Below are positions 22,106-40,800 of a stretch of 64,000 nt of DNA, one piece after another. The stretch covers positions 620,001-684,000 of the forward strand of contig ML978130.1 in the NCBI GenBank assembly GCA_010015805.1, written 5' to 3'. Source of the DNA: Rhizodiscina lignyota (lineage: Eukaryota). Within the stretch, counting starts at the first letter, position 1, and every line of letters starts with the position of its first letter. A program made the translations under genes and the position numbers. The notes under the pieces were generated by a model. It searched no databases. It was not told the DNA's origin and saw nothing but the letters and a program-made list of their open reading frames with translations.

Positions 22106-23341
22106 ATGTTCGGCGTACTCTTAGCCACTTCGGTTCTTACCCTGTTTTCGGGCGTCCATGGCCACATGGTCATCACTTCGCCAGTGCCCTTCGACCAGAC
22201 CGCACTCAACAACTCCCCTCTCAACGCTGATGGCTCAGACTTCCCTTGTAAAGTCGGTGGCGGTTCAGGCTACACCTACTCCGTCACCAAGATGAACGAG
22301 GTTGAGGTCGGCCAAGCCCAGAACATCTCGTTCATGGGTAGCGCAGTTCACGGTGGTGGCTCTTGCCAGATCTCGGTCACTCTGGACAAGAACCCTGACA
22401 AGAACAGCCAGTGGAAGGTTGTTCATAGCATCATCGGTGGCTGCCCAGCCAGCATCCCTGGAAACGTGCCAGCTGATACCGCCACCTACACCGGTGCTCC
22501 CCTCGCCAGCTTCCAGTGGACCCTCCCGAAGGGCATGCCTAATGGTCAGTATACTATGGGTTGGACCTGGATAAACAAGATCGGAAACCGCGAATTCTAC
22601 ATGAACTGCGCCCCTATCCAGGTGACTGGTGGTGCCAGCAACAACGATGTTTTCGACAAGCTCCCCGATATGTTCGTCGTCAACATCCCGCCAACCACGT
22701 GTGCTATCCCGCAGTCCGTCAACTGGGTTTACCCCGACCCTGGTGACAGCGTCGAGACCGCCGAATCCTCCGACCTTGCCAGCACTTTCGCTGTTAGCGC
22801 CGGCTGCGCGTCCGTCACAAACTTGGGCGCCGGCGCGGGTAAGGCTGGCACTCCAGCTCAGGCTACTGGCGCTTCCAGCGGCTCTGATTCTGGCGCTAGC
22901 TCCGCCGCTGGTGGAATGATCGGTTCTTCTCCTACGACTGCTGCCCCCGCCGCAACTAGCGCAGCTGGAGGCGACGCAGGTGGCGTTTTCGCTCCAGGAG
23001 CTTCCTCTGCTTCTCCGGCAACTACCATGGCTACTAGCGTCGCTCCAGTTCCCGCTGCCACTAGCGCTCCTGCGGCATCTGCTCCTGCGGCACCCGCTCC
23101 GGCCTCTGGATCCTCCGGATCTTCTGGATCTTCTAGCGGTAGTGGCAGCACTGGCTCAACCTGCACAACCAACGGTGCCATCGTCTGCAACGGCTCGACT
23201 CAATTCGGCCTCTGCAATAACGGCAACGTCGTCTGGCAGGCTGTGGCGGACGGTACGACTTGCTCCAATGGGCAGGTCATGAAGCGCTCCTACCGCCCTC
23301 ACGCACACATGCGTCGCAACACATTCGGCTACGACTTCTAA
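22106..23341 (+). CDS. AA11 lytic polysaccharide monooxygenase with Ser/Ala/Gly linker and C-terminal Cys-rich X278-type module (CWR-1-like architecture)
   Basis: Signal peptide MFGVLLATSVLTLFSGVHG followed by His1 (HMVITSPVPF). AA11 motifs NSPLNADGSDFPCK, GSAVHGGGSCQIS and WTWINKIGNREFYMNCA. C-terminal module CTTNGAIVCNGSTQFGLCNNGNVVWQAVADGTTCSNG. Confidence 0.93.
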   Translation: MFGVLLATSVLTLFSGVHGHMVITSPVPFDQTALNNSPLNADGSDFPCKVGGGSGYTYSVTKMNEVEVGQAQNISFMGSAVHGGGSCQISVTLDKNPDKNSQWKVVHSIIGGCPASIPGNVPADTATYTGAPLASFQWTLPKGMPNGQYTMGWTWINKIGNREFYMNCAPIQVTGGASNNDVFDKLPDMFVVNIPPTTCAIPQSVNWVYPDPGDSVETAESSDLASTFAVSAGCASVTNLGAGAGKAGTPAQATGASSGSDSGASSAAGGMIGSSPTTAAPAATSAAGGDAGGVFAPGASSASPATTMATSVAPVPAATSAPAASAPAAPAPASGSSGSSGSSSGSGSTGSTCTTNGAIVCNGSTQFGLCNNGNVVWQAVADGTTCSNGQVMKRSYRPHAHMRRNTFGYDF

Positions 23342-23875
23342 GCCACGGCTTTTATCAATTCAAGCAGCTTGATGTTTTCCTCCTTCCTTCTAACGGCAAC
23401 TTCTTTACGACATGGGTTCGATCGGGATTTGCAAGCATCATCAGCGAAGGCAAAGGGAAGATATGACTGCATCGCTTTCGGAGTTCTTTGATTTTCCATA
23501 GGGACTTGCTTTAGCCTTTTCATAGGCCTGATTTTTGTTTTTCTTTTCTGCATTTTGCACATTTATCTAGGGACATATCACGATTGGGTTCTTCCGACAG
23601 GAACGAACAGCAGTGTTCCACTGCCTGAGGATACTGTATATCGGTATTCGCAAATAGAAAATTCACTTCTTCACAATTTCGATGTTTTGATTGTCTGTAC
23701 TGTGACTTGGCGGTACCTCGTCGTACCAAGCTTGATACCCACTTAACGCCCCGTGAGCGGTTCTGAAACGTTGCTGTAACACAAGGGCATTAGAAAGCTT
23801 CAATCAATTACTTGCGCCAATCTCTCCGTCAATGATTCTCCTTCCCCTTTACCCGTCCGCCTTTCCGCTTGCTCT

Positions 23876-26248
23876 TCAGATGATCACGATTTCATCCCCT
23901 TCATACGTTGGAGAGTGTAATTTCTCCAGAGCCCTGTCGCGAAGGCGTGGAGGAACAATACAAGGGCCTACCATGCGGAAATTTTCGCCAGAAGGGCGCA
24001 GAATAAAAGCCATATACGCTTGTGGGAATAAGAATGCAAGTTTGTCTCCTTCTTGGACCCTAGGGGGGCTTACGCCGTAGAATCCAGACGTCTTGGTGGT
24101 GAAAAAGGTCCTCTGCGGCCCGAAAAGGTGCCCAATTGGTATATTGAGCTGCGGCAACTTCCCAACGGTCCGAGCCTCACCCTTCAGTACGTTCGAAAGC
24201 CAAGCGCTGCCTGTGATGCTCTTCTCGCTTTGCGCAAGATCGTAAAATTGTTCATCTAACTCCTCTTCAGACACGTTAGTAAGGGCAGAATAGCCTTCCA
24301 GCAGATCTCTCCAAATGAAGGTCAGCCAGCTCTCCGGGTCCAGACTACGGCCTGTGGTCGGAAATTTGGTGCGGCATAGTTCATTAACCAAATAAAGACT
24401 GCGGATCTTGTATCGTTGTGTGAGTGTCGAAGCGAAAAACATGGAGGGGTCATCGGCTTGGGTCGTAAGTTCGGGTATTGTTTCATCCTTGGTCTTCGCA
24501 TGTATGTCTAACCAACTTTTAATCTGGCTCCCTTCGTCCTGGCTTTCTTCCGATGAGCTTTTCATCTGCCGCTCCGAGTAATCTCGCATTTCGCGAGTAA
24601 GACCGAAAAAGGTGGACTCCACGACCGCATCAACTTCGTCAACGAGGAAGCCTCTCACGGAGAGCCGTGCATCATTTACCGAGAGAAGTCGCCTGTCGAT
24701 CGCGTCTCTGTTGACCGTATGTCGACCGTGCTGTTTTCGAAGTAGCGGTGTATGGCCGCCGAGAGTGGAGTTCTGGTGATATAGCCAGTACCAGGTAATG
24801 TCTTCATGGTCGCACAAGAAAGGACTATTCTGGGAGAAATCAGGCACCCATGATGGTAAACCAGGTGTTGGCATGTCGAGTGACAAGGACAGCGGATATT
24901 CTAGATAGAGGTCGACCGCTCCTGGTTCATCTTTCCCTTGTCGAAGCATATATGTCATCGCGTCGCGATACACTTCGGCAACCGATTTGTCGTATGATAC
25001 CTGCACAGACTGGTGCACAGATGGACTCACTATGCCAAATGTGCCGTAGATCTTGTCTTTTAAGTCGGTCGCGTCGAAATCCTTTATGAAAGGCAGAACC
25101 TTGTATAACGGTCTAGGACGCAGCCTGCCTTCGTCATCCACTATTGCTCTGCGGATATTTATCAAGTTGGCCAAGGTCTTCTCGGCTTCATCATGATTGA
25201 TCCAAACAGTAGCAGACTTTCTGGTGAAGACTTTTGAAGAGACCACATTTCCACTCGAGTCAACAATCTTCCATAACTGATTAAAGTCCATGCCAGGGAT
25301 GCGATCTTTAAGCATTGGCAGAACCCAATGTGTTGCCATGAACTTGCCGTACGAGACAGTTCGTGACCCGCACAAGATCTGAGGAAGGGCTTTTCCAAGA
25401 ACGAACTCTTGAACGACCCACGTACGACGGAACCAGGGACGCTTCAGCAGCTGGCCAAAATCCATCGCAAACTTGCGAGTTTGCATAGCCTCCACGTTTT
25501 GTTGGGCAATGATATCAAGAGTCTCATCGCTACCATCTTTAGCAGCGCCAAGCCAGACAATCACCCTTACCGCTTGGTGGTATATCCTGCCCATAAGCGG
25601 GATCTGTGTATTCTTTTCAGCTTTGCCGTCATCTCCGACTTGGTTGATACAAATGGCGTCAATCCAAAGCTTACGCGTTGATGTTGGCTTGCGAAGCTGC
25701 GTAAGAGCATCGTAAAGATTCCATGAGACCTCGAAAGGATGACTATTGATCCAGATGGTATGTTTGGATTGCTTGTTACTTCTCCAGGAGTATGATAAAG
25801 CCTCATATTGTGCCGCTGCTGAGTTGAGGTCGGCTTTTTCAATCGTACAGCAGATATCGTCTCCGCCAGGCAACAGAGATAACAATCTAATTTGATCGTG
25901 ATCCAACGGCGAATGCTCAAAAGGATCTGTAAACTTTTGATACTGCTCTGCTCCAGAAATGTCTTCCGGCTGCTGATGAGAGGTAATGAACAACTCTTCC
26001 ATTTCGAAAGCTATGGATTGCTGGCTCCGAGGTATGTGGGTTGTTCCGACTCCTGACTTCTGACAGAGCGAAAACAAATCATTCCAATAGCTCCGTGGAC
26101 TCCATAGGCAGTGGTGACAGACGTGGTAGGTCCTGCCATTTTGACCGGGCTCCATCCACTTGCTCCAACTGCCATCATCCCAACCCATTCTGTCACATGT
26201 CTCACAGCCTATCGCCTTTGGTCCAGCATTCATTTGTGACCCCGCCAT
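23876..26248 (-). CDS. HET-domain (heterokaryon incompatibility, HET-6-like) protein
   Basis: IRLLSLLPG, YEALSYSW, LWIDAICINQ, EKNTQIPLMGRIYHQAVRVIVWLG, RPWFRRTWVVQE, ATDLKDKIYG and LPSWVPDFS. Intronless 790-aa ORF; alternative start at 26002. Confidence 0.93.
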   Translation of the reverse strand: MAGSQMNAGPKAIGCETCDRMGWDDGSWSKWMEPGQNGRTYHVCHHCLWSPRSYWNDLFSLCQKSGVGTTHIPRSQQSIAFEMEELFITSHQQPEDISGAEQYQKFTDPFEHSPLDHDQIRLLSLLPGGDDICCTIEKADLNSAAAQYEALSYSWRSNKQSKHTIWINSHPFEVSWNLYDALTQLRKPTSTRKLWIDAICINQVGDDGKAEKNTQIPLMGRIYHQAVRVIVWLGAAKDGSDETLDIIAQQNVEAMQTRKFAMDFGQLLKRPWFRRTWVVQEFVLGKALPQILCGSRTVSYGKFMATHWVLPMLKDRIPGMDFNQLWKIVDSSGNVVSSKVFTRKSATVWINHDEAEKTLANLINIRRAIVDDEGRLRPRPLYKVLPFIKDFDATDLKDKIYGTFGIVSPSVHQSVQVSYDKSVAEVYRDAMTYMLRQGKDEPGAVDLYLEYPLSLSLDMPTPGLPSWVPDFSQNSPFLCDHEDITWYWLYHQNSTLGGHTPLLRKQHGRHTVNRDAIDRRLLSVNDARLSVRGFLVDEVDAVVESTFFGLTREMRDYSERQMKSSSEESQDEGSQIKSWLDIHAKTKDETIPELTTQADDPSMFFASTLTQRYKIRSLYLVNELCRTKFPTTGRSLDPESWLTFIWRDLLEGYSALTNVSEEELDEQFYDLAQSEKSITGSAWLSNVLKGEARTVGKLPQLNIPIGHLFGPQRTFFTTKTSGFYGVSPPRVQEGDKLAFLFPQAYMAFILRPSGENFRMVGPCIVPPRLRDRALEKLHSPTYEGDEIVII

Positions 26249-27366
26249 CGAGTGAATGTTTCTTGATATGAAGGGAAAGCGTCTTCGAGTTCGCTCAGTA
26301 GGTGATGGGAGCTGTAGCGACGGGACGTGGTCTCTGAGATACTTGTAGCTCTTAATGGAACGGGTCCATCGTTGCAGACGCGAAAGGTAAGGATGATTTC
26401 ATGATTCTCTGCTGTTCCGAGAGAGCTCAGCACTGAGAATTTCTGCAAGGCAGAAAGGGAACTCGCGGCGCAAAGGAGCATTAGCAACCAGACATTGGGA
26501 AGTCTGGACTGCGGGGTTGAACACGGTCTCCGGGCCCTGAAGATGGGCTTCAAATCAGGTACCTACCTACGATGGGAGCTCCGACGAAGGTGATGAGGCA
26601 ATGAAGCGGGCGGAGAGATGGATGCAGCGTGAGTCTGAGGATTTTCTCCTTATGGAACTGTCATTCTAGCGCTCCGGTCTTCGAAGGAACTCCGGTAGCC
26701 GCGATTAAGCAGGGGCGAACCGCTGAAGGGGCGATCGATACGTTGTGACCATGAGCCTCTAGCCTCTTCTTTTCGGACCATCTGAGGGGTCATTGCTATC
26801 TGCATCAGAAATTCTGCCACAGTTTCAAGAAGCCCTCCTGCCATTGATCTCTGCAGATCATTTTTACTGGGGAAATTTGAAGGGAGTCTCCATGACTCGA
26901 CGCTCTCAGGAACGCTCCTTGGCAACGTTTCTCCGCACTCAGTCCGCATACAGTAAACCCCGTTGCCCTCTCACACTTCCGCCTCTCATTACACAATTGC
27001 GCGGTGCCCTTTGACCCGAGCTTCATCTTAAGCTTCACCATGAGAACAACCAATCTTTCCAAACCTGGGCGAACTTTCCGTCTACGGCTTCGGAAGAATG
27101 ATAGTTACGTGGACGCTTCTTCCTGCCGAAAATTTGGGCAAGCTAATGCACTGACTTGACGATATTCCATGTTGCTCACGCGTTGATCTGGAGCCAAAGC
27201 AGCATGGGTAACGTCAAAGGAAGCCGATTTTCATATTTTGATCAATATCATCCAAATGAACTGAGAGTCCTATTGGGCTAGCCTATCCTTTGAAAATGCA
27301 TATTACCTGAGTTGTTCGCAGTTCGCAACGTGCACAGTGCTGCCGTCCCACAGTGCCAAATGAAAG

Positions 27367-30057
27367 ATGTTGCTGCGTCTCCATAACTTCGTTTCACTAA
27401 TTACAATCTCGCTCGCTGCCGCAGTCAGCGTCGATGATGGATCGCTTCGCGCAGATGGCTTGATTCAGCCCCTGGGCATGTCCAATGTCAACCCGCGACT
27501 CTCCTGGATACCTCTCTCGGACACGCGCGGCGACCGACAGACTGGGTACCAAGTCCAAGTCTCGTCCTCTCCGAGTTTCCAAGTCGCCGATCTCTGGGAC
27601 TCAGGAAAGGTTCATTCTACTGCGGTTTGGACAACATACGCTGGCCGAAGTCTTGCTTCCCGCGATGTCGCCTCATGGCGTGTAAGAATATGGGATGCGA
27701 GCGACAAACCATCATCATGGAGTGCGATCGGCTCGTTTGAGATGGGACTTCTAAAAGAGTCTGACTGGCAAGCACATTGGATCGCCAATCCGGAATACAT
27801 TCCTGGAGGTGGAACGTCTCTGCCAATGTTTGCTAAAGCGTTCGAATCGAGCTGCTCAGCCAAAAAAGCGCGTTTGTATATACTTGGACTAGGCCAATTT
27901 GCAGCATACGTAAACGGAAATCCTGCATCCGACTCGGTTCTCGATCCCTCATACAGCCAAACGAATGCCTCGTTACCATATTCGACATATGATGTGACAC
28001 CTCTTATGCAAGATGGAGTCAATCTCATTGGAGTCGAAGTCGGTAAAGGAGTTTACGATGCGGAGCAACCCGTTGCAAAGCGCTACACGGATTTCATCAC
28101 AGCCTCGAATCCTCCAACTGTGATCGCAAGGCTCGAAATGACGTGCCAGGATGATGGTTCGGTGCACAGTATCGTCTCCGATGAATCGTGGAAGACCTCC
28201 GTATCAGGCCCACATCTAGAAGCAAGCTGGTACGGAGGCTGCGAGTATGACGCCAGAAATGAGACCAAAGGATGGCCAAACACAAGCGTAGATCTCTTAG
28301 CACCTGCTTGGATCAATGCAACAACTATAACCCTGCCTGTTGGCGGTACACTTACTGCTGATCCAGGGCCTGCGATGAAGGTTATTGACAGATGGCCCGC
28401 AAGATCTGTGACAGCAGTGAACGGCAGCTACATCTTCGATCTGGGCATCAATATCGCAGGGTGGTTCAACATAACCATGCACGGAGGCTCTGCTCAGAGA
28501 GTTGTTTTCTGGCCTGGGGAAAGACTACTGAGCTCAGGGCTTGTTGATCAATCGACCACTGGATCGCCGATTTTTGATGGCTATACCTTCGCGGGGCGAC
28601 CTTCAGAGTCATACCATCCAAAATTCATGTATCACGGCTTCCGATTCATCCAGGTAGACAACCTTACTTACACTCCGGAGGCATCAGACCTTGAAGCGTT
28701 GGTAATCCGAGCGGAGAACGAAGCAGTCGGCTCGTTCGATACATCTTCGGAACTGTTCAACTCGATTCACACAATCATCGATAGGTCCATGCAAGGCAAC
28801 ATGCATTCCGTCATGACAGATTGTCCGCACCGAGAGAAGTCAGGCTGGCTTGATGATGTACATCTCGTCTTCTTTCCCCTAGCTCAGAACTACGACGTAT
28901 ATGCGCATACAAATCGCCTTGTCAGTATCATAGCAGACTCTCAACTGCCGGATGGAATGATTCCAACAACAGCGCCGGAGTTTAAGGTCTTTTTGCCTCC
29001 GTATCAAGTCTACCGGGATGAGGCCAACTGGGGTAATGCGATCATGACGACGTCTCTCTACCATTATCAGACATATGGCTCGACGGATCTCTTCGAGAAG
29101 TACTACGACCATATGGTCCATTATGTGGAGTACCTCACGTCTGAAACAAATGGAACTTCCATCATCCAAGGCGGACTGGGCGACTGGGAGTCGTTTGATA
29201 CAACTACGCCTGTCAATCTGACATCAACCTTTGGTTACCAGCAAGCCGTTGCAGCATTGACGCAGATTGCGGCTGTTTTGGGGAAACAGAGCGATGTGCA
29301 CAAGTACGCGGCCTTGAACAAAAAGATTCAGAGCGCATTCCACAAAGGCTTCTTTAACACCACGACAAAGAATTCGTACGCATCTGGGTCCATGGCATCA
29401 AATGCAATTGCATTAGACATGGGTGCAGTGCCGTCTCAGTACCAGTCCGCAGTCTTTGATTCCCTTGTCAAGAAGATCAAAGATGAAACATATCACATGT
29501 TGGTCGGCGAGATTGCCCTTCCGTCCCTCTTCCGCGTTCTGCAAGCCCACAGTCGAGACGACGTGCTGTTCGACATGATGAGCGTGACGACGAATGTGAG
29601 TTACGGATTCCAAGTTGCACAGGGCGCAACATCGCTGTGGGAACATTGGGACGGCGTGTCCGGAAGCCTCAATCATTGGATGTTCGGTTATGGCGAGGCT
29701 TGGTTGAGGAGGCTGAGCGGAATGAGCCAGGCAACAGGAGACGTAGCATGGCAAAGTATTGAATTTCAGCCGATCGTCGTGGGTGATCTCTTACATGCTA
29801 ATTCGACTTTCCGATCTCCCCGGGGCTGGGTAAAGACCGCATGGAATCTTGATGGCGATACTCTTGCCTACGCTATCACCGTTCCTGTGGGCAGCACAGG
29901 TACAGTCACACTAAGCAGCACAGACGTGACAGAAAGCGGTCGATCTCTGAGGCAGGGGAACGGGATCACAGATATCCGGAGGTCAGGACACGCAGTCACG
30001 ATACAGCTCGGATCTGGCTCATATAACTTTCGCGCTGAGCATTATTTACGCGGATAG
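27367..30057 (+). CDS. Secreted alpha-L-rhamnosidase, GH78
   Basis: Signal peptide; NPRLSW, DLWDSGKV, FDLGINIAGW, FMYHGFRFIQV, TDCPHREKSGWLDD, GLGDW, GATSLWEHW and SLNHWMFG. Intronless, 896 aa. Confidence 0.93.
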   Translation: MLLRLHNFVSLITISLAAAVSVDDGSLRADGLIQPLGMSNVNPRLSWIPLSDTRGDRQTGYQVQVSSSPSFQVADLWDSGKVHSTAVWTTYAGRSLASRDVASWRVRIWDASDKPSSWSAIGSFEMGLLKESDWQAHWIANPEYIPGGGTSLPMFAKAFESSCSAKKARLYILGLGQFAAYVNGNPASDSVLDPSYSQTNASLPYSTYDVTPLMQDGVNLIGVEVGKGVYDAEQPVAKRYTDFITASNPPTVIARLEMTCQDDGSVHSIVSDESWKTSVSGPHLEASWYGGCEYDARNETKGWPNTSVDLLAPAWINATTITLPVGGTLTADPGPAMKVIDRWPARSVTAVNGSYIFDLGINIAGWFNITMHGGSAQRVVFWPGERLLSSGLVDQSTTGSPIFDGYTFAGRPSESYHPKFMYHGFRFIQVDNLTYTPEASDLEALVIRAENEAVGSFDTSSELFNSIHTIIDRSMQGNMHSVMTDCPHREKSGWLDDVHLVFFPLAQNYDVYAHTNRLVSIIADSQLPDGMIPTTAPEFKVFLPPYQVYRDEANWGNAIMTTSLYHYQTYGSTDLFEKYYDHMVHYVEYLTSETNGTSIIQGGLGDWESFDTTTPVNLTSTFGYQQAVAALTQIAAVLGKQSDVHKYAALNKKIQSAFHKGFFNTTTKNSYASGSMASNAIALDMGAVPSQYQSAVFDSLVKKIKDETYHMLVGEIALPSLFRVLQAHSRDDVLFDMMSVTTNVSYGFQVAQGATSLWEHWDGVSGSLNHWMFGYGEAWLRRLSGMSQATGDVAWQSIEFQPIVVGDLLHANSTFRSPRGWVKTAWNLDGDTLAYAITVPVGSTGTVTLSSTDVTESGRSLRQGNGITDIRRSGHAVTIQLGSGSYNFRAEHYLRG

Positions 30058-31262
30058 AAATACATAAATATGGTGAGCGACAGTAGCGCTGAAGAAAAGA
30101 ATATAAACGAAGAAAGAATGTCCAGTGAAGTGTATGGTCATTTGAATATTCGCCGCAGGAACTGCAATATTATCACTCTGCGAGAGACTGCGAGGCGCCA
30201 TGCCCCGCCTACTTCCTCCTCGGACGTCTGTAGAGAGGCTCGCTGGTACCAAAAGCATGCCGGACGTTGCTCAAACAAGGTGGCACAGCAATTCTAGCGT
30301 GCTGAAGAGTAACACTCGACTGCTTGCGGTCCGGACGACTCACGAGGTCGATCGACATTATGAGCCTTGGGTCTGTGATACTATCTGCACTAAGGCTGAA
30401 CCCTTTCAAATTGCACAGGTTATAGAGACGTGGACGTGAAAGTAAAAGCGCATACGGTATGAGACGAGTCCTCGTACGATGCCTCTCCCGATTTTTGTTC
30501 TCCAAGCGCCGATCTTTAAGCCACCAACACCGGTGAACATCCGATGTCCGCTATTTAGCCGCGCGGTGCACGTCGATAGGATAACCCCCTGCTTCTGTCT
30601 GCCGTCCGTCGCTCTGATTGATCTCTCGGGCGCTTCTGGCCATCTCGCTTCCACAAACCACGAACCACGTCCAGGCGTCAATGCTGGCATGCCACCAACA
30701 CGATCTGCCATCGCCAGTGGCTGTCTTGCCCTGCTGCAAGGGACCACGGCAAGGGATAATACGGTTTCGGTCTTGCAGCTAAGCGCCCGTGTGGCACAGA
30801 AAGGGAATAGCAGGCGACCGAGGCCCAGATAGGACACTCTTTGCAACGTCGGATTGGTCGCACCAAACCAACAGGCAGATCTGGCATACCCGCCGAATAA
30901 CGCGATCTCAGTTATGCCCATGTTAAGTCGCCAGATACTGACACTCAAAATTCCCCGAAGATAGGCGTTTGTCCCTGCAAGAAAGAAATGACTGCTGCAG
31001 AAGGCGGAAATGCCTGTCTGCCCTTTAGACTCCAATTCGATAAGAGCGATTAGGCTGTTCATCTCTTCTTCTGCTCTATTATTAGCTATGCTGCCTGGAT
31101 CGGTTCATCTTTATTCAAATTGCATGTCCGTGCCTTAAGTGTTACCCGTGGGAGATGTTAGTTCTTTCGTTTCAAACTACTTCACAATTCTCTTGTTGCA
31201 GTCGAGGAATAGCGTCAGAGTGTATCGAGCAACGGCGCTAATTCCGTCAGACTTCGATCGCT

Positions 31263-34087
31263 ATGGGGAGAGGATCCAGGCAACCATGGCAAGCGTTGTC
31301 GTTGCAATGGCCATTTCTAACATTTGTTGCACTGGTCTCCATTGGCCTTGCCGCGGCCATCCAGGTCCTGGCGCTGAGGAGTAAAAACGATGGAGGTGTC
31401 ATTCATTCAGAGGACGTAGACGCACTCTCCCTTGGACAGAGCTTTCTATACCGAGTTCTCCCAGCGATCATTGCCGTTCTTTACAGCTTCTTGTGGAGCT
31501 GGATCAATCTCGATGTCCTGCGTCTGGAGCCATTCTACCAGCTCTCGAAATCGGGCGGAGCCTCTGGAAGACAGTCTGTACTGCTATCCTATGTATTCGA
31601 CTTCATTGCAACGGTGCCAATCAAGTCTCTCCAGCACGGGTATGTAGTTCTCTGATCTCCCTTGACGAAACTCTCGCTGACCGACTCAGTCATTGGGCAG
31701 TGCTCTCCTCATCTGTCGCCGTTTTGCTCGTCTTGTGGGGATTGATTCCCGTCCAGAGTGGCATATTTGCTGTAGATGGACAGGCAGTTGTCGTCGTACC
31801 CGCATTCGCTTACCTGGCCGAAGGGTTTCTTTTGACAACCTCTGCTATCGCAATTGCTCTCCTGTACTGCAACGTATGGAGACCGCGTCACCTTATTCGC
31901 GATCCCTCGTCAATTGTAGCAACTATGGCTCTCGTTGCCAATAGCGGTTTTGTTCTGGATAGTTTCAAGAGTATGGACAAGTCGACAGACGTAGAGCTGG
32001 ACCAAAGATGTGGAGAACACCAATATGAGCTCATACAACACGACACTGGCAATGTTCAACTCCATGATGTAGAAGATTCATTACCTTCAAAAACGGACAT
32101 CTACGAGTTACCAAGTGTTGCTACGCAACCTACTTTGGAACCCAGTGCGACTGCAGGATTCCTCTCGCCCAGTTTAGACACCCTTTGTGTCATAGCGTTT
32201 GTCGTCTTCAACCTCGTCACTATGGCCGTGCTTGCAGTGCTCTTCAAAAGATCACAATCGTTTGGTGAGTCACGGTATTATATGTGTACATTCCGGTTGC
32301 TGAGTACTACAGGTATTGCCTTGCCGTCAGGGAACAGATTCGTGTGTCAGCTGTTGGAACATTACATTCCAACTGCCGTGGCAACTTTTATCGAACCCGT
32401 TTGGGTGCTTGTGAGTAGATACTTTGGTCTACTGCAACCATTTGAGGAGCTGTGGAAAAGAAACCGACCGCGCTCCGAATCCATTGGCCTCAGTTACAAC
32501 TCATATCCTCCGCAACTGGGAGTTTTCAGGGCTTTCTGGAACAGACATTTTGTCTTGGCTGCTGTCTGCACAATGGCTTTGCTGGCAAATGGGCTTACCA
32601 TTGCAATGGCCAGTGTCTTCTTTGAGAAGACTATAGACGTGCCATCTAGCACCAGCTTCGTGCAGACGCTGGACTCTCGATTGATGTTGGCACCAGATGG
32701 AACCATGGACGACTATTCCGACATGATGTCTAACCTGACATCAGGGACACCACTCAAGCCGTGGACAGACTCGAAATATTTCTACGTACCATTTGATACT
32801 GCAAGTACACCTGGCACGATTGAACGAAGAGCTACGACAGTAGCATTTGGTGCGGAGCTGCAATGCAGACCATTCATCCCCCCAGCTTTCAATGAATTCG
32901 GAAATACCAACAAGACAGATGGAACGACCGGTTGGACTTACTTCTTCAATGCGACGCTCGGCTCGCCACACTTCTGGTCTCCAAATGATGGAAGCGGCGA
33001 ATCCGTATCAGGTACGGGATTCATGGACCCCAGAACATACGGAGATTGCACCAGTACTCCGGTAGCGGCAGAATATATCGCCCTTGTCAACACCTCGACT
33101 CCGGATTTGAATACTGGCTTTGTTGCGGGATGGGTTCGTTCCGATGCGAAGTCGTGCGCATTGAATACGTCCCTTCCGGATGACAAAAGCACTTTGATCT
33201 TCTGTCAGCCGAAAATAACAGTCGGGTCAGCAAGTGTCACTGTAGACGCGTCTGGTGTGGTGACAAATGTGAAGCCTTTCTCCACTTCGGAACTGTCGCA
33301 GGCGAATTTTGTCGCCAATGGAACCGATGACTGCCCCAGATCCCCCATTAATGCGACTGAGCTAGCCTCCCTGTCTGATCTGAGCTGCCTTTTGACGAAC
33401 AATCCTCCAAACTTCATGCGGGCTATGACCCGCTTCTTCATCATCAATGGTTGGGGCGGTCAATTTGCAACGCCGTCCATCGCCGTGGCAAGCCCTGCGG
33501 ACGTAATTGTGGCAACGTCTTTCTGGCACGACTCTTCCTCCCCGTCAGATTACAACAACATGTTTATGACGGAGCTGGACGGCAGTGGCGCCATCCTGGA
33601 CCCTACTCAGCCTGCACCTTCAGTGGAACATGCCTCACAGCTGCTCTCCGATGTGTACGCGAGAATGTTCGCAGCACTGCTCGGCTCGCACGCTTCTGAG
33701 GCATTGGCGCCACTCCAAAGCGCGAAACAAATACCTGGTCAATTGATCCAGACGGAAACACGCATTTTCATGTCGAAACCGGCGTTTATTGTTTCGGAAC
33801 TGATCTTATCTACCTATGTCGTCGCTATTGTACTTGTGTATCTGTTTCGACCCGGGAAATTTCTGCCACGATACCCGACGAGTATTGCATCCGTCATTGC
33901 GTATTTTGCTGCGAGCCACGCGGTACAAAACGTTAGAGAAATAGAAGAGATGTTGGATAAGCAGGAAAGCAAGTTCGCGAAGGATTTGGGACAATGCTAT
34001 GGATTTGGTGCATTCGAAGGTACCGATGGGAAAGAACATATCGGGATTGAGAAAGTGGAGTTCCTGAAACCACAGGGGCGATTATGA
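31263..34087 (+). CDS. Multipass membrane protein with two DUF3433 repeats (CWR-2-like)
   Basis: Repeat 1: FLYRVLPAIIAVLYSFLWSWINLDVLRLEPFYQLSKSGGASGRQSVLLSY. Repeat 2: LEHYIPTAVATFIEPVWVLVSRYFGLLQPFEEL..SIGLSY. Each half ends in a TM helix plus a PSSI/PTSIAS motif. Introns 31640-31689 and probably 32265-32312; about 908 aa spliced. Confidence 0.85.
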
Positions 34088-34454
34088 AATTAATTCATGG
34101 CATATAGCGCTCTGCGAATTTTTGTTATGTATTGAGCACGAATCTACGATATTTGATTATGTGATCCATAACGTATGGTCGCGGTGGAGATTCTTTCCGG
34201 AGATGGTGAACTCCCTTCAAAGAAACATTAAAAAGGCTAGTACAACACTTTCGAGAGCTTTTAATGTATGAATACTGAGCAATTCCACTCAGCAAATCGA
34301 ATGCTATATCAAAGTAAGGATAGAGCATCAGAGCGGAGCGGGACGTCCCGTTGAATGTCGATGACGAAATCAACCAGGAACACGATATCAGCCCCTGACT
34401 CTTGAAACATCACCGCCCTCCAACCCCACACCAAGGCCACACGCGAATTACAAA

Positions 34455-35582
34455 ATGTCATTCAACTGGCTTATAACTGGAGCCTCGAACGGCTTGGGAG
34501 CCACTCTCGCTATTCACGCGTTGCGCGCAGGGCACGGAGTCGTGGCGACCGCTCGAAATGTGCCAAAGGCTTCGAAAGATTTCCCTGAGATTGAAGAGCG
34601 AGGCGGTAAATGGCTAAAGTTGGACGTCACGCAACCAGACACCGAAGAGGTTGTGCGCAAAGTTGTTCAAGAGCAGGGGATCAATGTCATTGTGAATAAT
34701 GCGGGTACGTAAGAGTTCACATGTTCAGTACATCTGCGAGCATTTGTTGAGCGTTAGTTGGGTTGAGCACGAGATCCATCTATCAACTTTGAGGCGAGGT
34801 GTCAGAGGAAACCAGCAAGATCAAAGGGCTCTCCTTAAAAGATCGCAAAACCACTTTTAAACACTATACTGCTCTCTATGTTAAGCTCTCTTGCTAAGGT
34901 CAACAAATACAGGATTCGGTGGTCGTGGAGTCCTGGAAGATTTCACGTAGGATTATCCACTCAATTAGCGATGGTGATGTCAAGGCTGATCACATTGTGC
35001 AGACTCCCAGAAGTGCAGAAGCAATTTGACACAAACGTCTTCGGCGCCGTTGCGGTCATGAAAGGCGCCATACCAACTTGGCGCGAGCGACAAGACGGAA
35101 CTTTTGTCAATATCAGCAGTGTGGCGGGCATGGTTGGGAACCCTGGCTCTTCTCTGTATTCAGCGTCAAAGTTTGCACTCGAAGGTTTCACGGAAGCCAT
35201 TGCTCTGGAGCTGTCTCCTTTCAACATCCGCTGCCTTATCGTACAGCCTGGTGGATTCCGCACGGACTTTCAACGAAACGTTTTGAGGCCAATCAAGGGT
35301 CGCCTTTCTCAGCCGTACGAGGGAACGCTTGTTCACAAGCAGATGGACAGGATTGAGGAAGGTCCGACGGGGCATGGTAGGCAGCCGGGAGATCCAGACA
35401 AAGCAGCAGATGCCATCATTGAGGTTGTAACGAAGAAAGGGAAGGGCGGAGCTTACGAAGGTGTCCTTAGGTTGGCTCTTGGAAATGATGCCGTTGATAG
35501 GGCGAGGGCGAAGCTGAAGTCTTGGTCAAGTGATGTTGACAGGACAGAGGCACTTGGCCGAGGTGCAGTGTATGACGGTTGA
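34455..35582 (+). CDS. Classical short-chain dehydrogenase/reductase, 3 exons
   Basis: WLITGASNGLG, VNNAG, FDTNVFG, NISS, YSASK and VQPGGFRT. Introns 34705-34912 and ~34947-35002. Confidence 0.92.
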
Positions 35583-35662
35583 GAAAGCACGCAATGTCCT
35601 GGCGTTTGCCTTGAGGTATAGAAAGAACTAGAGGCATTGCGATATAGACAAGAATCGAGCTT

Positions 35663-36548
35663 TTACCATGGCTGGACGGGTGTCGCGTACCACCTCACAA
35701 CCTTTCCCACATCGTCATCCCTAGCGCCCTCCACGACTTCCTTCACGAAATTACCACCAAGCGCCGGATCTTGGGCGCCTTGAGCTTTCATCTGCGCTCT
35801 GGACTTTTCGTCGCCACCCGCTAACCCAGTTGCGAGGAAGCCAGGAGAAATAGCGAAGACCTTGACACCGTCATTCCTGAGGGTCTTGTACCATTCCCTC
35901 ATCATCATGTTCATCCCCGTCTTCGAGCTCCTATACGGTGCGACCGTATTAGGTTCTGGCTTTGGCCACCCAGCGGGCGGCGGGCCATTCAAGCGCGAAT
36001 AAATTGGGCCATCCATAGGTTCGGTGCCAGCGAGGGTAGCTGTGCCGCTGGCCATGAAGATCAAACGAGCATCGTCACCCTTGAGGAGCAGAGGAGCGAA
36101 GACATATGTCATGATATGGGTCCCTGACACATTGACATCCCAAGTCCTGTTCCATGCTTTTCGAATGCTGGAGAGGTCATCCCAGTCGATGCTTGAACCG
36201 TATTGTGCGCCTGTTTTTACATTAGGAAATAAGCGCCACCATGAAGAGGGTGATGTATCACAAACCTGCGTTGTTGATAAGGATATCGAGTTTGCCATAT
36301 TTAGAAGACACCTCCTCGAAAGCCTTTTTGATGGAATCGTCATCCTCAATGTCAACTTGCAATGCTGAGAGGGTGCTCTGCGAGTTTGGAAACTCTGACT
36401 GAAGCTCTTTGATAGCATCTTGAGCCTTTTGGATGGAGCGGCCGCAGAGGAGGATGGTGTATGATTTGCTCGATTGAACGAGAGCCTTGACGATCTCATA
36501 TCCAAGGCCGGTATTGCCTCCAGTGATGAGTGCAAGTTTGGCAGCCAT
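35663..36548 (-). CDS. Short-chain dehydrogenase/reductase (carbonyl-reductase-like), 2 exons
   Basis: ALITGGNTGLG, LDILINNAG, intron ~36211-36265, VNVSG, YRSSK and ISPGFLAT. Confidence 0.92.
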
Positions 36549-37897
36549 ATTGGTGAGTCGCAAGGAGCTGTCTCGTAGAATTGGAAATTCAATGTCTTAG
36601 AAGGGCGTCGTTGAAGGTGTTGTCGTGTTCAATGGCATGAAACGACGCCTCGACTGGTATTTATGCAGCACAAAGGACTCCTAGCTCTATTAATGGTATG
36701 AGTCAATTGGAATTGGAATGCGTGGAGAGCAGGGATGTTGTGCACTGGCGGAATTAGGGTTGAGGAGGCGCCACCCTTTCGTTTAGCTTGCGCCTCTTGG
36801 GGTGATGCTAGACAATATCGATCTAGTATGGATCTATCCCGCCCCTAGCTTTAAGCTTAGTTCTCCATTCTCCGGCCCTGACTTGGGGGACTCATACATC
36901 CCATTGCGGAGGAAAGAACATCCTCTACATGCGGATCCCTCTCGGCACTGGACTAGATAAGAGCTGTTTCCTCTAGCGCAGATTGACAGTTGCTCAGATT
37001 GACAAAGCATTATCAAGCTTAACGCGGCCGACTGGGACAAATGCGGGAATTCCCTGAAAGTTGCAAAGCCACACAGCAACCTTCGGAACCCGGAACGCTC
37101 TCGATCCTTTCTCCTAAGTCCAGCGCCGACCTTACAACTGCGAGCTTTGCATGGTACCACCAAGTACAACATGATGAGCATGGAATTGAAGCCACCTTGA
37201 GCCTTCGGCCTTGAATTGAGAGCGAGATTTTCTACCGCGCGCTTGCCAGACAATGATGGAAACTCCGGCCGTTAAGTCCGATACGTCTAGGGTTAGGGGT
37301 GGATATTCAAACTGCAGTGGATTGGGTTCTCAGAGGCTACCTAGCTTCCCGTATGAATTGCATGAAGACTCTTAAGAGAAGCAGAAATTCACTTGGATAA
37401 TTCAAAAAGTGAGTAAAAGCTGTGGTGGTGCGTCTATTCAAAGTCTATTTCGGACGAGCCCGCCACTGGACAAGCTGTGACGCCTAAGGGCTATCATTTC
37501 TGGGCACTTCAAGATCCCCGAGAGTATTTCTTAAAGCTGTATTGTATGTGTTTTAGAGTCCATTCTTACAATTTGCGTATATTGATCGAGTCTTACTATA
37601 CTTGCCAAATACGAGTCTGGCATCATCACTTTTTAGGGTTGGGTTCGCCCACTACTTTCCTTTCTTCTCCCACGCGCCCAGGAAGAATGCGAATACAATA
37701 GCGGCAGGACACAGTGTATAAATATCTATGTGGTAATGCCACATATGACAATTGTCTAGAGAGTGTGTGAACTACTTATTTGCTGTCCTTATGCTAACAT
37801 CGCACGCTATCTCCAAATTGGAGCGAACAGGGTGGAATGGTTGACAATAGTATGAGATGCCGGCTTCAACGTGTAATGCATCGGATGTTTTCTAAAC

Positions 37898-40800
37898 CTA
37901 TCCGAGTACCGTCGCTCTGTAAGGAATGATTCGCACTGGCTGGATGAGCCCGTAGTCCTGTGCTGGCGCAGGCGGGGTTGGCGGCGGTGCGCCAGAGCTC
38001 AGCAGCTTATCCCAATAAACACGCAAGACGTTCAGCAACGGCGTGCTGACCACTGCTTCCACAGTGTTCTCACCCTCAATCAGATACTGCGATACATCTG
38101 CTTTAGCCCAGTTCAAATCCAGCGGTGGGAGCGTATGACCATTAATAGTGACCCGAATGGTATGAACGATGGCTCCGAAGTCGATGAACGCACCAGTCGA
38201 TGAAGAACTGTTCGAATACGACGATCCAGCAGACCAAGTGAAGCTTGTACTGTAGTATCCCAGTCCAGATACGTTCTGGAGGCCATTAATATTCTGCCAT
38301 GACGTGAGTGTATCGAGATGATGCGTAGTATTGGTCTTGCTAGTTTTCTCAATATCGAATATGTCGGAAGAGGGAGTCCAGCTCTCCGCGACCAAGGTCC
38401 AGTTTGACAGAGCCAAAGTTGATTGAGCTGCGCCAGCAACTGAGTGAACCTTGCCTTCTGAGGTAGTCACACTCATGCTGGAGGATCCAGGGCCAGCAAT
38501 GGCTACCAACTTGCCATCGGCGCTAGACAGTCCAAGAATTCCAGCGTCGGCAGAGGTTGCATGAGTTGTGGGGACCGGGCTATCGCTCAACGGTGAGTCA
38601 GCAAAGGCTACTATAGTAGACTGATTCCCAGCGAGCTGGAAGAATATGGTTGTTGAAGTATCCGTTTGAGAATAGTTGAGGATTGGCTTTTGCTCTCCAG
38701 TCCAGGCGTCGAACGTGTATGGTACTCCAGTGGAATCAAATTGGACTGTGCCTTCACTGTAGCCATTTCCGAGTCCCAGATTACCACCATCGTTGTACAC
38801 GAATACGTAATCCATGCCCTTCAGATCGTCGCGTCTCCAGTATGTATACCATGTGGTATTGGCAGATAACTTGGTCAGAGGTGTAACCCCAATCGAAGCC
38901 AGGGATGCCGCGAGCCCCTCATAAGGGATAACATGCACATTGGGTAGGGATGCCAATGGCCTCAGAACATCTGATATGAGGTTGTCCTGAACTGTCTCCG
39001 CTGTGAGAAGATAAGTGGGAAACCCTCCCGAGAAGAGAATCGGAAGCCCAGCGTGAGCATACTCAGCAAGCTGTTGCACTCCGTTGGGCGTCATGGAGTC
39101 GTTGGCTCGAACAACAAGCGCTTTGAATGCCTGCCTCTCTGGGGCCAATATGCCTTTTGAGACATATGCTTCTGGCAAGTTGAAATTATCCGGACTCAGA
39201 TACTCGTACCCATAACCGGCTTTCTCGAGGTCTGTCGGCTGGTAGTTTCGAACGATTGAGGGGAAGTTTGTGATCTTCATGTATAAAGCTACATCCAGCT
39301 TTGGTATCCCACTCTGAAATACGAATTGGAGACGGGCCGCAAAGTCAATCGTGTCTGATGCAAAATTCCAAGAAGGCTGTCGCTTGCCGTGCATCTCACT
39401 GTACTGGTAGTCGAATGTTGTGAACCTTGAAAAGTGTTAGCCAAATTGCTACAAGTCCCATAGCTGGCTACATCATGAGGGAGCGGTGCAAGTAGGAAAG
39501 GCTTTGCTCTAAGCAGTTCTGGGTTGATGGTGTTGGCTGCCACCGCTTGAGCAGACCCCACCCAATTTCAAACTTGCAGCGATCCGCTGGCTCGCTTGAG
39601 TTGGAGGCGTAGCTCGCTGCGAGTCCCTGAACATTACTCATCGTTTGTTTCTCACGGCTGGCAGAGAGCAAAGCAACTCCTACTACTTCTGCATTTAAGG
39701 ATGACACAGGTTTGAGATATACTGTAGGAATCGAAATAGAGACGAAACCTTACCCTGGCCATGTTGTATTGCCATACTATGAGATGTCAGCCTCCATTGA
39801 ATGAGTGTTTCCATAGCACTTACAGGACCGGAGTATGGGTAACCGTGGAACACAAACTGATTCACAGACCCCGCAATGGATCTTTTCACGTCCCAAAGTA
39901 GCTCCGGCATGGTCTGTTCATAAGCCTCGAGATGGTTGGCACCGCATTCAGTCGAAATAATCCGCTTTCCAGCCAGGTTTGAAGGACCAGTGTACTGGCG
40001 GTATCCATCTATGAGGTGATTGAATCCCAGCGATTCGCACTCAGGAGCGTCGACATTCGGTACGTTTTGCAACATGTCCATTGGCAGATTGTACGAAATC
40101 TGTGCAGAGTATTGAATATCGAGGTATTCATGGGCCCAGTTATTTAACGTCTCAACGTAGACACCGTACAAGTCGGTCAAAGTCTGCCGATAGTCTGCTA
40201 TGTGGCCGTCGCCTGCATCGGACTCATCAGTAATCCACCATATTGGTGGCTCTGAGTCGAATCCTATTTTGTTCTCGTGAAACAAAATCGGAAGCCATTT
40301 CGTGACGTCGTAGTTGTGCTGCGCAGCAAACACGGATGGGAAATCCCTGGTCCAGAAAACATTGCCTCGAGTTTCGATGCTATCTTCCCAGCCGTAGTTG
40401 CCTACTTGCATAACCAGTTCTTTTGTTCCGTTTGTAAGAACATATTTCTCCCAGAAGTCTGTTATAGTCTTAGCTCCCGTAGCGGAGAAGTGGTCCACAG
40501 ACCAAGATCCATTCTGAAGCCATGTCTGAGGTGTTGTTTGCGGCCCTTGCAAGAAAGCTGGATCCTGCTGGGCGCGATAACCGTTGTGGATTAGATAGAC
40601 GAAGAAGAGGTTAATCTCCAATCCTGTGCTGTTTGCCTGGAAGTTGACGTTTAATGTTCCATTTGCAGTGACACGGCTGGTCAAGTCTTGAAGGCTATCT
40701 GCGGCCAAAGTAACTTGTGTCCGATTGTGGGGGGAATCGCCTGGAAGGCCGGGGGCAACGCCCGTTGCGTTCAAGGACGGGGGTGAATTTGGGACGGTAA

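What the first reader, a model, noticed from the sequence alone, without database searches (positions are those of the whole stretch)
22106..34087. cwr-1/cwr-2-like allorecognition locus with a HET-domain gene inserted between the partners
Seen in sequence: an AA11 LPMO with linker and C-terminal Cys-rich module (22106-23341) and a two-repeat DUF3433 membrane gene (31263-34087) lie co-oriented within 12 kb. A HET-domain gene converges on the LPMO only ~530 bp away. Established: in Neurospora crassa the linked genes cwr-1 (AA11 PMO with an X278 module) and cwr-2 (DUF3433 membrane protein) form the cell-wall-remodelling allorecognition checkpoint before fusion, and HET domains are effectors of post-fusion cell death. 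Inference: this may be a composite non-self recognition locus coupling a CWR-type ligand/receptor pair to a death effector, an arrangement I do not know to be described.
Basis: partly seen in the sequence, partly recalled or inferred. Interest (0 to 1): 0.82.

Follow-up and report, generated by a model that had tools for sequence, protein, structure and literature searches.

The report
Rearranged cwr-1/cwr-2-type locus, HET gene bystander
This fungal locus is a relative of the Neurospora cwr-1/cwr-2 self-recognition gene pair in which two unrelated genes, one a HET-domain gene, sit between the partners and the membrane partner has lost a large outer loop; nothing found here ties the HET gene to the pair.

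Summary
An intact AA11 LPMO with linker and Cys module lies at 22106-23341 (+). A HET gene lies at 23876-26248 (-), 534 bp away tail to tail. A two-repeat DUF3433 membrane gene lies at 31263-34087 (+).

The cwr-like reading is supported. In 5 of 5 Dothideomycete assemblies present in both homologue lists, the AA11 and DUF3433 orthologues share a contig. In 3 of them the NCBI accessions are consecutive. The DUF3433 family tree follows fungal classes and includes Sordariomycetes. [quoted passage not shown]

Two things are new. The DUF3433 protein (908 aa) lacks the whole ~320-aa second extracellular domain (ED2), which matters for specificity in Neurospora. HET and GH78 separate the partners.

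No evidence links HET to the pair. It is an ordinary HET/Het-6-barrel type, and no relative of it was seen beside an AA11 or DUF3433 gene. Only one sequencing run holds this DNA, so polymorphism could not be tested. Verdict: new member of a known kind, modest interest.

The parts
22106..23341 (+). AA11 lytic polysaccharide monooxygenase gene, cwr-1-type, single exon, 411 aa. Signal peptide aa 1-19. PMO domain aa 20-~230 (22163-22795). Gly/Ser/Ala-rich linker. Four-Cys C-terminal module, about 23150-23275, then a basic tail.
   Evidence: One search gives the ORF. One search matches 4MAH at E 3.3e-59, 9EXJ at 2e-51 and 7P3U at 2.1e-29. One search shows H20, H82, Y165 and C353/C361/C370/C386 invariant across 9 aligned orthologues.
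23876..26248 (-). HET-domain gene, 790 aa. A conserved N-terminal CxxC...CxxC stretch spans about 26105-26206. The HET domain is aa 148-281 (25406-25807). The C-terminal ~500 aa resemble the Het-6 barrel type.
   Evidence: One search gives PF06985 E 2.8e-30. One search aligns 12 relatives of 39-79% identity. One search gives Atlas structure rows with TM 0.57-0.61 to HET/Het-6_barrel clusters.
27367..30057 (+). GH78 alpha-L-rhamnosidase gene, 896 aa, with a hydrophobic N-terminus. It is the second gene lying between the partners.
   Evidence: One search finds five rhamnosidase Pfam domains, the best being PF17389 at E 1.6e-76.
31263..34087 (+). cwr-2-type DUF3433 membrane protein gene, 908 aa. 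Exons are 31263-31639, 31690-32264 and 32313-34087. The two PF11915 repeats lie at about 31443-31639 and 32357-32623. ED4 lies at about 32624-33775.
   Evidence: One search gives the Pfam matches. Searches show GT..AG introns. Searches show that the product equals NCBI protein P0121 once both introns are removed.
31775..31780 (+). Junction where ED2 is missing. Residues D155|G156 join the end of TM3 directly to the start of TM4. Relatives carry 309-331 residues here.
   Evidence: Searches give the alignments. One search finds no tblastn match to ED2 residues anywhere in the 64-kb window. One search shows a separate assembly contig of the same sample spanning 23220-34500 with 0 differences.

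Best explanation
This is this Dothideomycete's copy of the conserved cwr-1/cwr-2 gene pair, in a rearranged and partly reduced form.

The AA11 gene encodes an intact secreted copper LPMO with a PMO domain, linker and Cys-rich module. The DUF3433 gene encodes the multi-pass membrane partner.

Mechanism, inferred by analogy with Neurospora crassa and not shown here: the PMO domain displayed at one cell's wall is read in trans by the extracellular domains of the DUF3433 protein on the touching cell, and a mismatch blocks cell-wall dissolution before fusion.

In this genome two unrelated genes, HET and GH78, lie between the partners. The membrane protein has lost exactly its second extracellular domain (ED2) in frame, so recognition here is probably altered or weakened.

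The HET gene is an ordinary HET/Het-6-barrel gene that happens to lie in the interval. No functional coupling to the pair is indicated.
For: Anatomy
- The AA11 protein is intact, with the histidine brace and tyrosine conserved.
- The DUF3433 protein has two PF11915 repeats and a TM pattern like its relatives.

Linkage
- Five assemblies appear in both homologue lists. In all 5 the two orthologues sit on a contig of identical length.
- NCBI accessions are consecutive in Lepidopterella palustris, Lecanosticta acicola and Pseudocercospora fijiensis. They are three apart in Coniosporium apollinis (W97_02275/W97_02278) and 29 apart in P. fuligena on a 180-kb contig.

Orthology
- A profile of the DUF3433 group found 2534 proteins at E<=1e-3, and the best 150 were all below 1e-126.
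- Of 8 of these proteins sent for naming (10 proteins were sent; the other two were the Stemphylium AA11 alleles), 3 are Sordariomycetes of 1206-1208 aa, 4 are fungi I take to be lichen-forming or allied (my labelling), and 1 is a Dothideomycete.
- In a 32-row tree the Dothideomycetes form a clade with support 100 and the three Sordariomycetes form one with support 100. The window protein lies inside the Dothideomycete clade.

Literature
- CWR-2 is 1217-1273 aa with 8 TM segments, two DUF3433 domains and large ED2 and ED4 domains (PMC12135175 section 15).

Allorecognition-type evolution in the orthologue group
- Two Stemphylium lycopersici AA11 alleles from three assemblies are 78.6% identical in the PMO domain and nearly identical in the linker and Cys module.
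- Allele B groups with the Curvularia protein (support 100/97). An AU test rejects the two alleles as one clade at p 0.0034.

HET as bystander
- See, and the second interloper GH78.
Against: - No N. crassa CWR-1 or CWR-2 sequence could be brought into a tree, so orthology to the named genes rests on architecture, conserved linkage and a published statement.
- The membrane protein fails two CWR-2 features: it has no ED2 and is 908 aa, not ~1217 aa. It also sits on a long branch (1.35 against a median of 0.73), so it may no longer do the CWR-2 job.
- No polymorphism, expression or fusion data exist for this species.
- The 'bystander' status of HET is an absence of evidence. The two genes between the partners in Coniosporium apollinis were not identified. 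The genomic context of the close HET relatives (56-79% identity) could not be read.
- HET genes linked to polymorphic partner genes are a known design of het loci (recalled: het-c/pin-c, un-24/het-6).
- The AU test hypothesis was formed after seeing a first tree.
Confidence: 0.6

Rival explanations
1. The pair is a relic here. Having lost ED2, the DUF3433 protein no longer recognises the AA11 partner and behaves like a null or permissive allele. The AA11 enzyme keeps only its chitin-oxidising role in the cell wall. The locus then plays no part in self/non-self recognition in this species.
For: ED2 is absent in frame. In N. crassa, ED2 swaps change allelic specificity (PMC12135175 section 15). 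The window protein has the longest branch within the Dothideomycete clade, 1.35 against a median end branch of 0.73. The partners are separated by two genes, whereas 3 of 5 other assemblies have them adjacent by accession.
Against: The 908-aa frame is open, both introns are canonical, and both DUF3433 repeats, ED4 and the conserved TM motifs are kept. This argues for continued selection on the protein. In N. crassa ED4 also affects fusion. The deletion removes one hairpin loop cleanly and keeps the topology.
Confidence: 0.25
2. One reading: a three-gene non-self recognition supergene. The HET death effector would be genetically and functionally coupled to the AA11/DUF3433 pair, joining a pre-fusion checkpoint to post-fusion cell death.
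For: The HET gene lies 534 bp from the AA11 gene, inside the interval. It is intact and belongs to a conserved subfamily. The AA11 orthologue group shows haplogroup-like variation elsewhere. HET genes tightly linked to polymorphic partners are a known design (recalled: het-c/pin-c, un-24/het-6).
Against: - In 3 of 5 assemblies the partners have consecutive accessions.
- The best named relative is 32% identical over 47% of the query (Lophium mytilinum). None of the 5 linked-pair assemblies appears among the 120 listed of 736 hits.
This is a weak test.
- 0 of 57 metagenome loci with HET relatives hold AA11, GH78 or DUF3433. That includes the two nearest with 3-4 kb of downstream flank.
- GH78, which has no link to recognition, shares the interval.
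- The window protein has Arg at position 156, where the alignment marks Gly as nearly invariant (>=90% of 12 rows).
Confidence: 0.08
3. Chance neighbourhood: unrelated members of two multi-copy fungal families (AA11, DUF3433) happen to lie within 12 kb and have no relation to cwr-1/cwr-2.
For: Both families have several members per genome. Contigs of the same sample show at least two further AA11-like genes. The DUF3433 profile finds 2534 proteins. In Aspergillus fumigatus the genes called CWR-1 and CWR-2 orthologues carry distant locus tags (PMC13278066 table).
Against: The same two orthologue groups are on the same contig in 5 of 5 comparable assemblies and have consecutive accessions in 3. 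Each listed species contributes one protein to each group, apart from allelic pairs. The tree follows fungal classes.
Confidence: 0.04

Closest known systems
Neurospora crassa cwr-1 (NCU01380) / cwr-2 (NCU01382) cell-wall-remodelling allorecognition locus
   Same: The secreted AA11 PMO has the same signal peptide, PMO domain, Gly/Ser-rich linker and C-terminal Cys module. The partner is a multi-pass membrane protein with two PF11915 repeats and a large ED4. The two genes are linked, and another gene lies between them in N. crassa as well (NCU01381, reported to have no role; PMC12135175 passage).
   Different: Two genes, HET and GH78, lie in the 7.9-kb interval here. The membrane protein is 908 aa and lacks ED2 (G164-R496 in CWR-2 HG1). 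No haplogroup, linkage or fusion data exist for this species. No N. crassa sequence was available for direct comparison.
[quoted passage not shown] 2019, as cited in PMC9550227; the 2019 paper itself is not held)
   Same: The Z. tritici AA11 (P0053) and DUF3433 protein (P0141) fall in the same orthologue groups as the window's proteins. P0141 lies in the same Dothideomycete clade.
   Different: P0141 is full length at 1249 aa with ED2. Whether those loci hold intervening genes was not seen.
AoAA11 of Aspergillus oryzae (PDB 4MAH/4MAI), a chitin-active AA11 LPMO
   Same: It is the best solved match, E 3.3e-59 over residues 20-226, with the copper-binding histidines and the tyrosine aligned. The literature gives it the same three-part architecture (PMC9550227 passage).
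   Different: AoAA11 is known as an enzyme only, and no recognition role has been described. The linker and Cys module are not in the crystal structure.
HET-domain het genes linked to a polymorphic partner (N. crassa het-c/pin-c, un-24/het-6; recalled, not read here)
   Same: A HET-domain gene of the HET plus Het-6-barrel type lies next to a gene from a family with haplogroup-like variation.
   Different: No polymorphism, linkage disequilibrium or death phenotype is known here. The HET protein carries an extra conserved N-terminal Cys-rich stretch.

Membership tests
CWR-1-type AA11 LPMO | Signal peptide followed by an N-terminal histidine, a second histidine of the copper brace, and the axial-sphere tyrosine | tested here: met
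   H20 follows a 19-aa hydrophobic leader and aligns with residue 1 of 4MAH. H20, H82 and Y165 are invariant across 9 orthologues.
CWR-1-type AA11 LPMO | Three-part architecture: PMO domain, Gly/Ser-rich linker, C-terminal X278 module | tested here: met
   The linker of about 120 aa is rich in G/S/A/T, and four Cys are invariant in the C-terminal module. The name X278 comes from the paper; no profile for it was available to score.
CWR-1-type AA11 LPMO | Groups with CWR-1 rather than with single-domain AA11 paralogues | tested here: inconclusive
   No CWR-1 sequence was available. As a proxy, the match to AoAA11 (E 3.3e-59) is far stronger than to chain 7P3U (E 2.1e-29). I take 7P3U to be the single-domain AfAA11A, which is recalled. 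The paper places AoAA11 in the same similarity cluster as CWR-1.
CWR-2-type DUF3433 membrane protein | Two PF11915 (DUF3433) domains | tested here: met
   E 6.9e-19 and 2.2e-22.
CWR-2-type DUF3433 membrane protein | Eight transmembrane segments | tested here: inconclusive
   Hydropathy only. Seven segments pass my threshold, counting two overlapping windows at TM4 as one. The TM6 position passes in relatives P0125 and P0126 but not in the window protein. No dedicated topology predictor was available.
CWR-2-type DUF3433 membrane protein | Large second extracellular domain ED2 (~333 aa in CWR-2) | tested here: not met
   309-331 residues present in 7 of 7 full-length relatives are absent between D155 and G156. 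No remnant was found in the window. A separate assembly contig agrees.
CWR-2-type DUF3433 membrane protein | Large fourth extracellular domain ED4 | tested here: met
   Residues ~422-805 align along their length with relatives.
CWR-2-type DUF3433 membrane protein | Same clade as N. crassa CWR-2 | tested here: inconclusive
   The orthologue group includes a Sordariales protein of 1208 aa (Cercophora scortea P0370) and follows fungal classes. CWR-2 itself could not be obtained.
cwr allorecognition locus | Tight linkage of the AA11 and DUF3433 genes | tested here: met
   7.9 kb separate them in the window. They are linked in 5 of 5 comparable assemblies.
cwr allorecognition locus | Divergent haplogroups, linkage disequilibrium and trans-species polymorphism in populations | not testable with these tools
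   Only one run, probably the source sample, holds this DNA. Elsewhere in the orthologue group, S. lycopersici AA11 alleles show a haplogroup-like pattern.
cwr allorecognition locus | Mismatched alleles in trans block cell-wall dissolution | not testable with these tools
   This needs fusion assays.
HET-domain incompatibility gene | PF06985 HET domain | tested here: met
   E 2.8e-30 over the full profile, positions 1-146 of 146.
HET-domain incompatibility gene | Polymorphic, with an interacting partner locus, and triggering death on co-expression | not testable with these tools
   No population or functional data exist.

The most novel reading that the evidence does not exclude
The HET gene has been captured into the cwr interval and travels with particular AA11/DUF3433 alleles as a three-gene supergene. 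One locus would then decide both whether cells fuse and whether a fused cell dies. The ED2-less membrane protein would be one haplogroup's way of changing or hiding its recognition specificity.
Probability: 0.07. Interest if true: 0.75.

Novelty: new member of a known kind. Interest (0 to 1): 0.33.

Why it matters
The cwr pair is one of the few fungal pre-fusion recognition systems with known genes, and how the two proteins read each other is unknown. A natural partner protein that has cleanly lost ED2, the domain that shifts specificity in Neurospora, is a ready-made variant for asking what ED2 and ED4 each do.

The side results suggest that this recognition role extends well beyond Neurospora. 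They are consecutive accessions of the pair in several Dothideomycetes, AA11 alleles in Stemphylium lycopersici that differ only in the PMO domain and are not each other's closest relatives, and congeneric DUF3433 proteins only 49-55% identical.

The HET gene's position is worth one look in population data. On present evidence it does not amount to a finding.

Tried and rejected
- Whole genome of the window: not held. Paralogue counts and the number of HET genes in this genome could not be made.
What it shows about synteny is known to me only through a passage in PMC9550227.
- Metagenome scan with the HET protein: no relative found. The second scan, with the HET alignment, gave 57 loci with best identities of 40-47%. 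None holds the close relatives, and tblastn found no AA11, GH78 or DUF3433 in any of them.
- Naming the close HET relatives and the closest AA11 and DUF3433 relatives: none of the 10 clusters carries an organism name.
- Sequencing runs: one holder, no RNA holder listed. Laying its contigs gave only assembly confirmation.
- Complex prediction of the AA11 PMO domain with ED4 of the window's DUF3433 protein: 'no answer', score 0.00 (collected). This is not evidence either way.
- Repeats or transposon traces around the HET-GH78 interval: only two chance-level short direct repeats and no inverted repeats. The long non-coding ORFs beside the genes have no Pfam match.
- Earlier scan notes: nothing on this place or sequence.
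- Profile search to reach N. crassa CWR-2: the library has no names. My 8 picks for naming gave Sordariomycetes but not Neurospora.
- Print searches for an AA11-HET-DUF3433 arrangement returned only the Neurospora cwr papers and unrelated hits. None describes a HET gene inside a cwr locus.
Full report
**What is there.** The window is fungal. Between 22 and 34 kb it holds four genes:
- an AA11 LPMO gene at 22106-23341 (+);
- a HET-domain gene at 23876-26248 (-);
- a GH78 alpha-L-rhamnosidase gene at 27367-30057 (+), with five rhamnosidase Pfam domains, the best at E 1.6e-76;
- a DUF3433 gene at 31263-34087 (+).

The HET stop is 534 bp from the AA11 stop. The rest of the window holds housekeeping genes (MCM, Vps54, Yju2, a TPR/APC subunit, a PHO4 transporter, a kinase) and some metabolic genes. 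It holds no other HET or NLR-like gene among the 23 long ORFs scanned. No repeats or transposon traces flank the interval.

**The AA11 gene.** The 411-aa product matches the solved AA11 LPMO 4MAH at E 3.3e-59 over residues 20-226. After a 19-residue leader, His20 aligns with residue 1 of the mature enzyme. His82 and Tyr165 are invariant in an alignment of nine orthologues. So are the four cysteines of the C-terminal module that follows a Gly/Ser/Ala-rich linker. The gene is intact and has the three-part architecture described for CWR-1 and AoAA11 (PMC9550227 passages).

**The DUF3433 gene.** It has two short GT..AG introns, 31640-31689 and 32265-32312. The 908-aa product equals NCBI protein P0121, named from Rhizodiscina lignyota. 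The 98% identity reflects the 16 residues of the second intron. It has two PF11915 matches.

Full-length relatives are 1077-1306 aa, the full-length hits. Aligned with 7 of them (4 Dothideomycetes and 3 Sordariomycetes), the window protein lacks one block of 309-331 residues. The block runs exactly from the end of TM3 to the start of TM4 (D155|G156, window 31777|31778).

This block corresponds in position and size to ED2 of N. crassa CWR-2 (G164-R496 of 1217 aa). ED2 is one of two large extracellular domains, and swapping it changed allelic specificity (PMC12135175 section 15). No trace of ED2 was found elsewhere in the window. A separate assembly contig from the same sample spans 23220-34500 with no difference, so the deletion is not an assembly artefact of the window. 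The frame is open and ED4, both repeats and the TM pattern are kept.

**Is the pair more than chance?** Yes.
- The AA11 search returned 1595 proteins at E<=1e-10, of which 120 are listed.
- The DUF3433 search returned 48 proteins at E<=1e-5, all listed.
- Each named species contributes one protein per list, apart from allelic pairs and strains.
- Five assemblies occur in both lists, and in all five the two proteins lie on a contig of identical length.
- NCBI accessions are consecutive in Lepidopterella palustris (OCK82133/OCK82132), Lecanosticta acicola (CAK4033136/CAK4033135) and Pseudocercospora fijiensis (EME82432/EME82433).
- They are three apart in Coniosporium apollinis (W97_02275/W97_02278) and 29 apart on a 180-kb contig in P. 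fuligena.
- Zymoseptoria tritici is in both lists, but from different strains, so it was not counted.

Adjacency therefore looks to be the common state in the class. The window's 7.9-kb interval with two genes would be a derived arrangement; without an outgroup the direction of change is inferred.

**Relation to cwr-1/cwr-2.** I could not obtain N. crassa sequences, so a direct tree was not possible. The indirect evidence is as follows.
- A profile of the DUF3433 group found 2534 proteins at E<=1e-3 and 847 at <=1e-30. The best 150 were all below 1e-126, most of them matched end to end.
- Of 8 of these that I sent for naming, 3 are Sordariomycetes of 1206-1208 aa (Cercophora scortea, Trichoderma, a Xylariaceae). 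Four are fungi I take to be lichen-forming or allied, which is my labelling. One is a Dothideomycete.
- In a 32-row tree (quick search, SH-aLRT support only) the Dothideomycetes form a clade with support 100 and the three Sordariomycetes form one with support 100. The window protein lies within the Dothideomycetes, next to an unnamed JGI protein, on a long branch of 1.35 against a median of 0.73.
[quoted passage not shown] The Z. tritici proteins are members of the window's two orthologue groups.

I conclude with fair confidence that this is the cwr-1/cwr-2 pair of this fungus, and that such loci outside Neurospora are already in print.

Against universality, one paper says the factors are not conserved in Botrytis cinerea (PMC8944665 passage). 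In Aspergillus fumigatus the genes called orthologues carry distant locus tags (PMC13278066 table).

**The HET gene.** It has a full-length PF06985 match. A conserved N-terminal CxxC...CxxC stretch is shared by 12 aligned relatives. By the Atlas's own model, the C-terminal part resembles HET/Het-6-barrel proteins, with TM 0.57-0.61 over 506-544 residues.

The window protein has Arg at position 156, where the alignment marks Gly as nearly invariant (>=90% of the 12 rows). I draw no functional conclusion from this.

Of 736 hits, 120 are listed.
- Seventeen clusters are 56-79% identical, all from unnamed ENA, Logan, JGI or NCBI assemblies. Two more are at 39-40%.
- The best named relative is 32% identical over 47% of the query.
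- None of the five linked-pair assemblies appears in the list.
- No contig length of a close HET relative equals that of a listed AA11 or DUF3433 hit. This is a weak test, because only the longest contig per cluster is shown.

None of 57 metagenome loci with HET relatives holds an AA11, GH78 or DUF3433 gene. That includes L001 and L003, which are 38-40% identical and have 3-4 kb of downstream flank. Nothing therefore ties the HET gene to the pair, and in most relatives there seems to be no room for it. The context of the close relatives could not be read, and the two intervening Coniosporium genes were not identified.

**Allorecognition-type evolution in the orthologue groups (outside the window).**
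- Stemphylium lycopersici has two AA11 alleles across three assemblies: P0101 with two accessions and P0102 with one.
- The alleles differ at about 50 positions, all but one within the first ~230 residues. That gives 78.6% identity in the PMO domain, while the linker and Cys module are identical but for one residue.
- In a 14-row PMO-domain tree, allele B groups with the Curvularia protein at support 100/97. I had left out 11 of the 25 rows, mostly distant or long-branched.
- Forcing the two alleles together costs 40 log-likelihood units, p-AU 0.0034. The hypothesis was framed after seeing the first tree.
- Congeneric DUF3433 proteins are only 55% identical (Plenodomus) and 49% identical (Pseudocercospora). 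They are not sisters in the tree.

These patterns fit long-lived allelic lineages, as published for cwr in Neurospora. They are hints, not population tests.

**What could not be tested.** For the window's own species there is a single sequencing run and no RNA holder listed. Haplogroups, linkage disequilibrium, HET presence/absence and expression all remain open. A complex prediction of the PMO domain with ED4 gave no answer and counts for nothing.

**Verdict.** The cwr-like reading is supported, but it is a new member of a known kind. The composite-with-HET reading is unsupported though not excluded.

Noticed in passing
window 27367-30057, 34455-36628, 37898-41062, 42399-43628, 15882-16754: The DUF3433 gene is embedded among sugar-related genes: GH78 rhamnosidase, two short-chain dehydrogenases, weak sub-threshold GH106 rhamnosidase matches, an FAD monooxygenase, and further off an RmlD-like reductase. 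This may be a rhamnoside-utilisation cluster. GH78 may belong to it rather than to the cwr interval.
   Followed up: partly
window 22574-22615, 22977-23010, 23153-23248: Contigs of the same sample include a 1385-nt contig, at depth 108 against about 152, that matches three short patches of the AA11 gene with longer spacers between them. This looks like a second AA11-linker-Cys-module paralogue. An 80-kb contig matches only the catalytic motif patch.
   Followed up: no
proteins P0101 and P0102 (Stemphylium lycopersici AA11): Two alleles differ only in the PMO domain (78.6% identity) and are nearly identical in the linker and Cys module. Allele B is closer to the Curvularia protein than to allele A, with p-AU 0.0034 against one clade.
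   Followed up: yes
proteins P0128/P0137, P0155/P0159, P0139/P0145: DUF3433 orthologues of congeners or confamilial species are only 44-55% identical and are not sisters in the tree. For example, the Pyrenophora protein falls outside all other Pleosporales. This suggests old allelic lineages or very fast evolution.
   Followed up: partly
window 26105-26206 (-), HET residues ~15-48: A CxxC...CxxC stretch at the N-terminus of the HET protein is conserved in its subfamily, with C44 and C47 invariant in 12 rows. It may be a small zinc-binding module not usually described for HET proteins.
   Followed up: no
HET relatives P0170-P0186: This HET protein has many relatives at 56-79% identity in unnamed assemblies. 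The neighbouring AA11 has only one relative above 60% over its whole length, and the DUF3433 protein has none above 36% by BLASTP. The three genes therefore have very different conservation profiles.
   Followed up: partly
protein P0155 (Pseudocercospora fijiensis): This 912-aa DUF3433 model is short because its N-terminus, including part of ED2, is missing from the model. It does not have the internal ED2 deletion seen in the window.
   Followed up: partly
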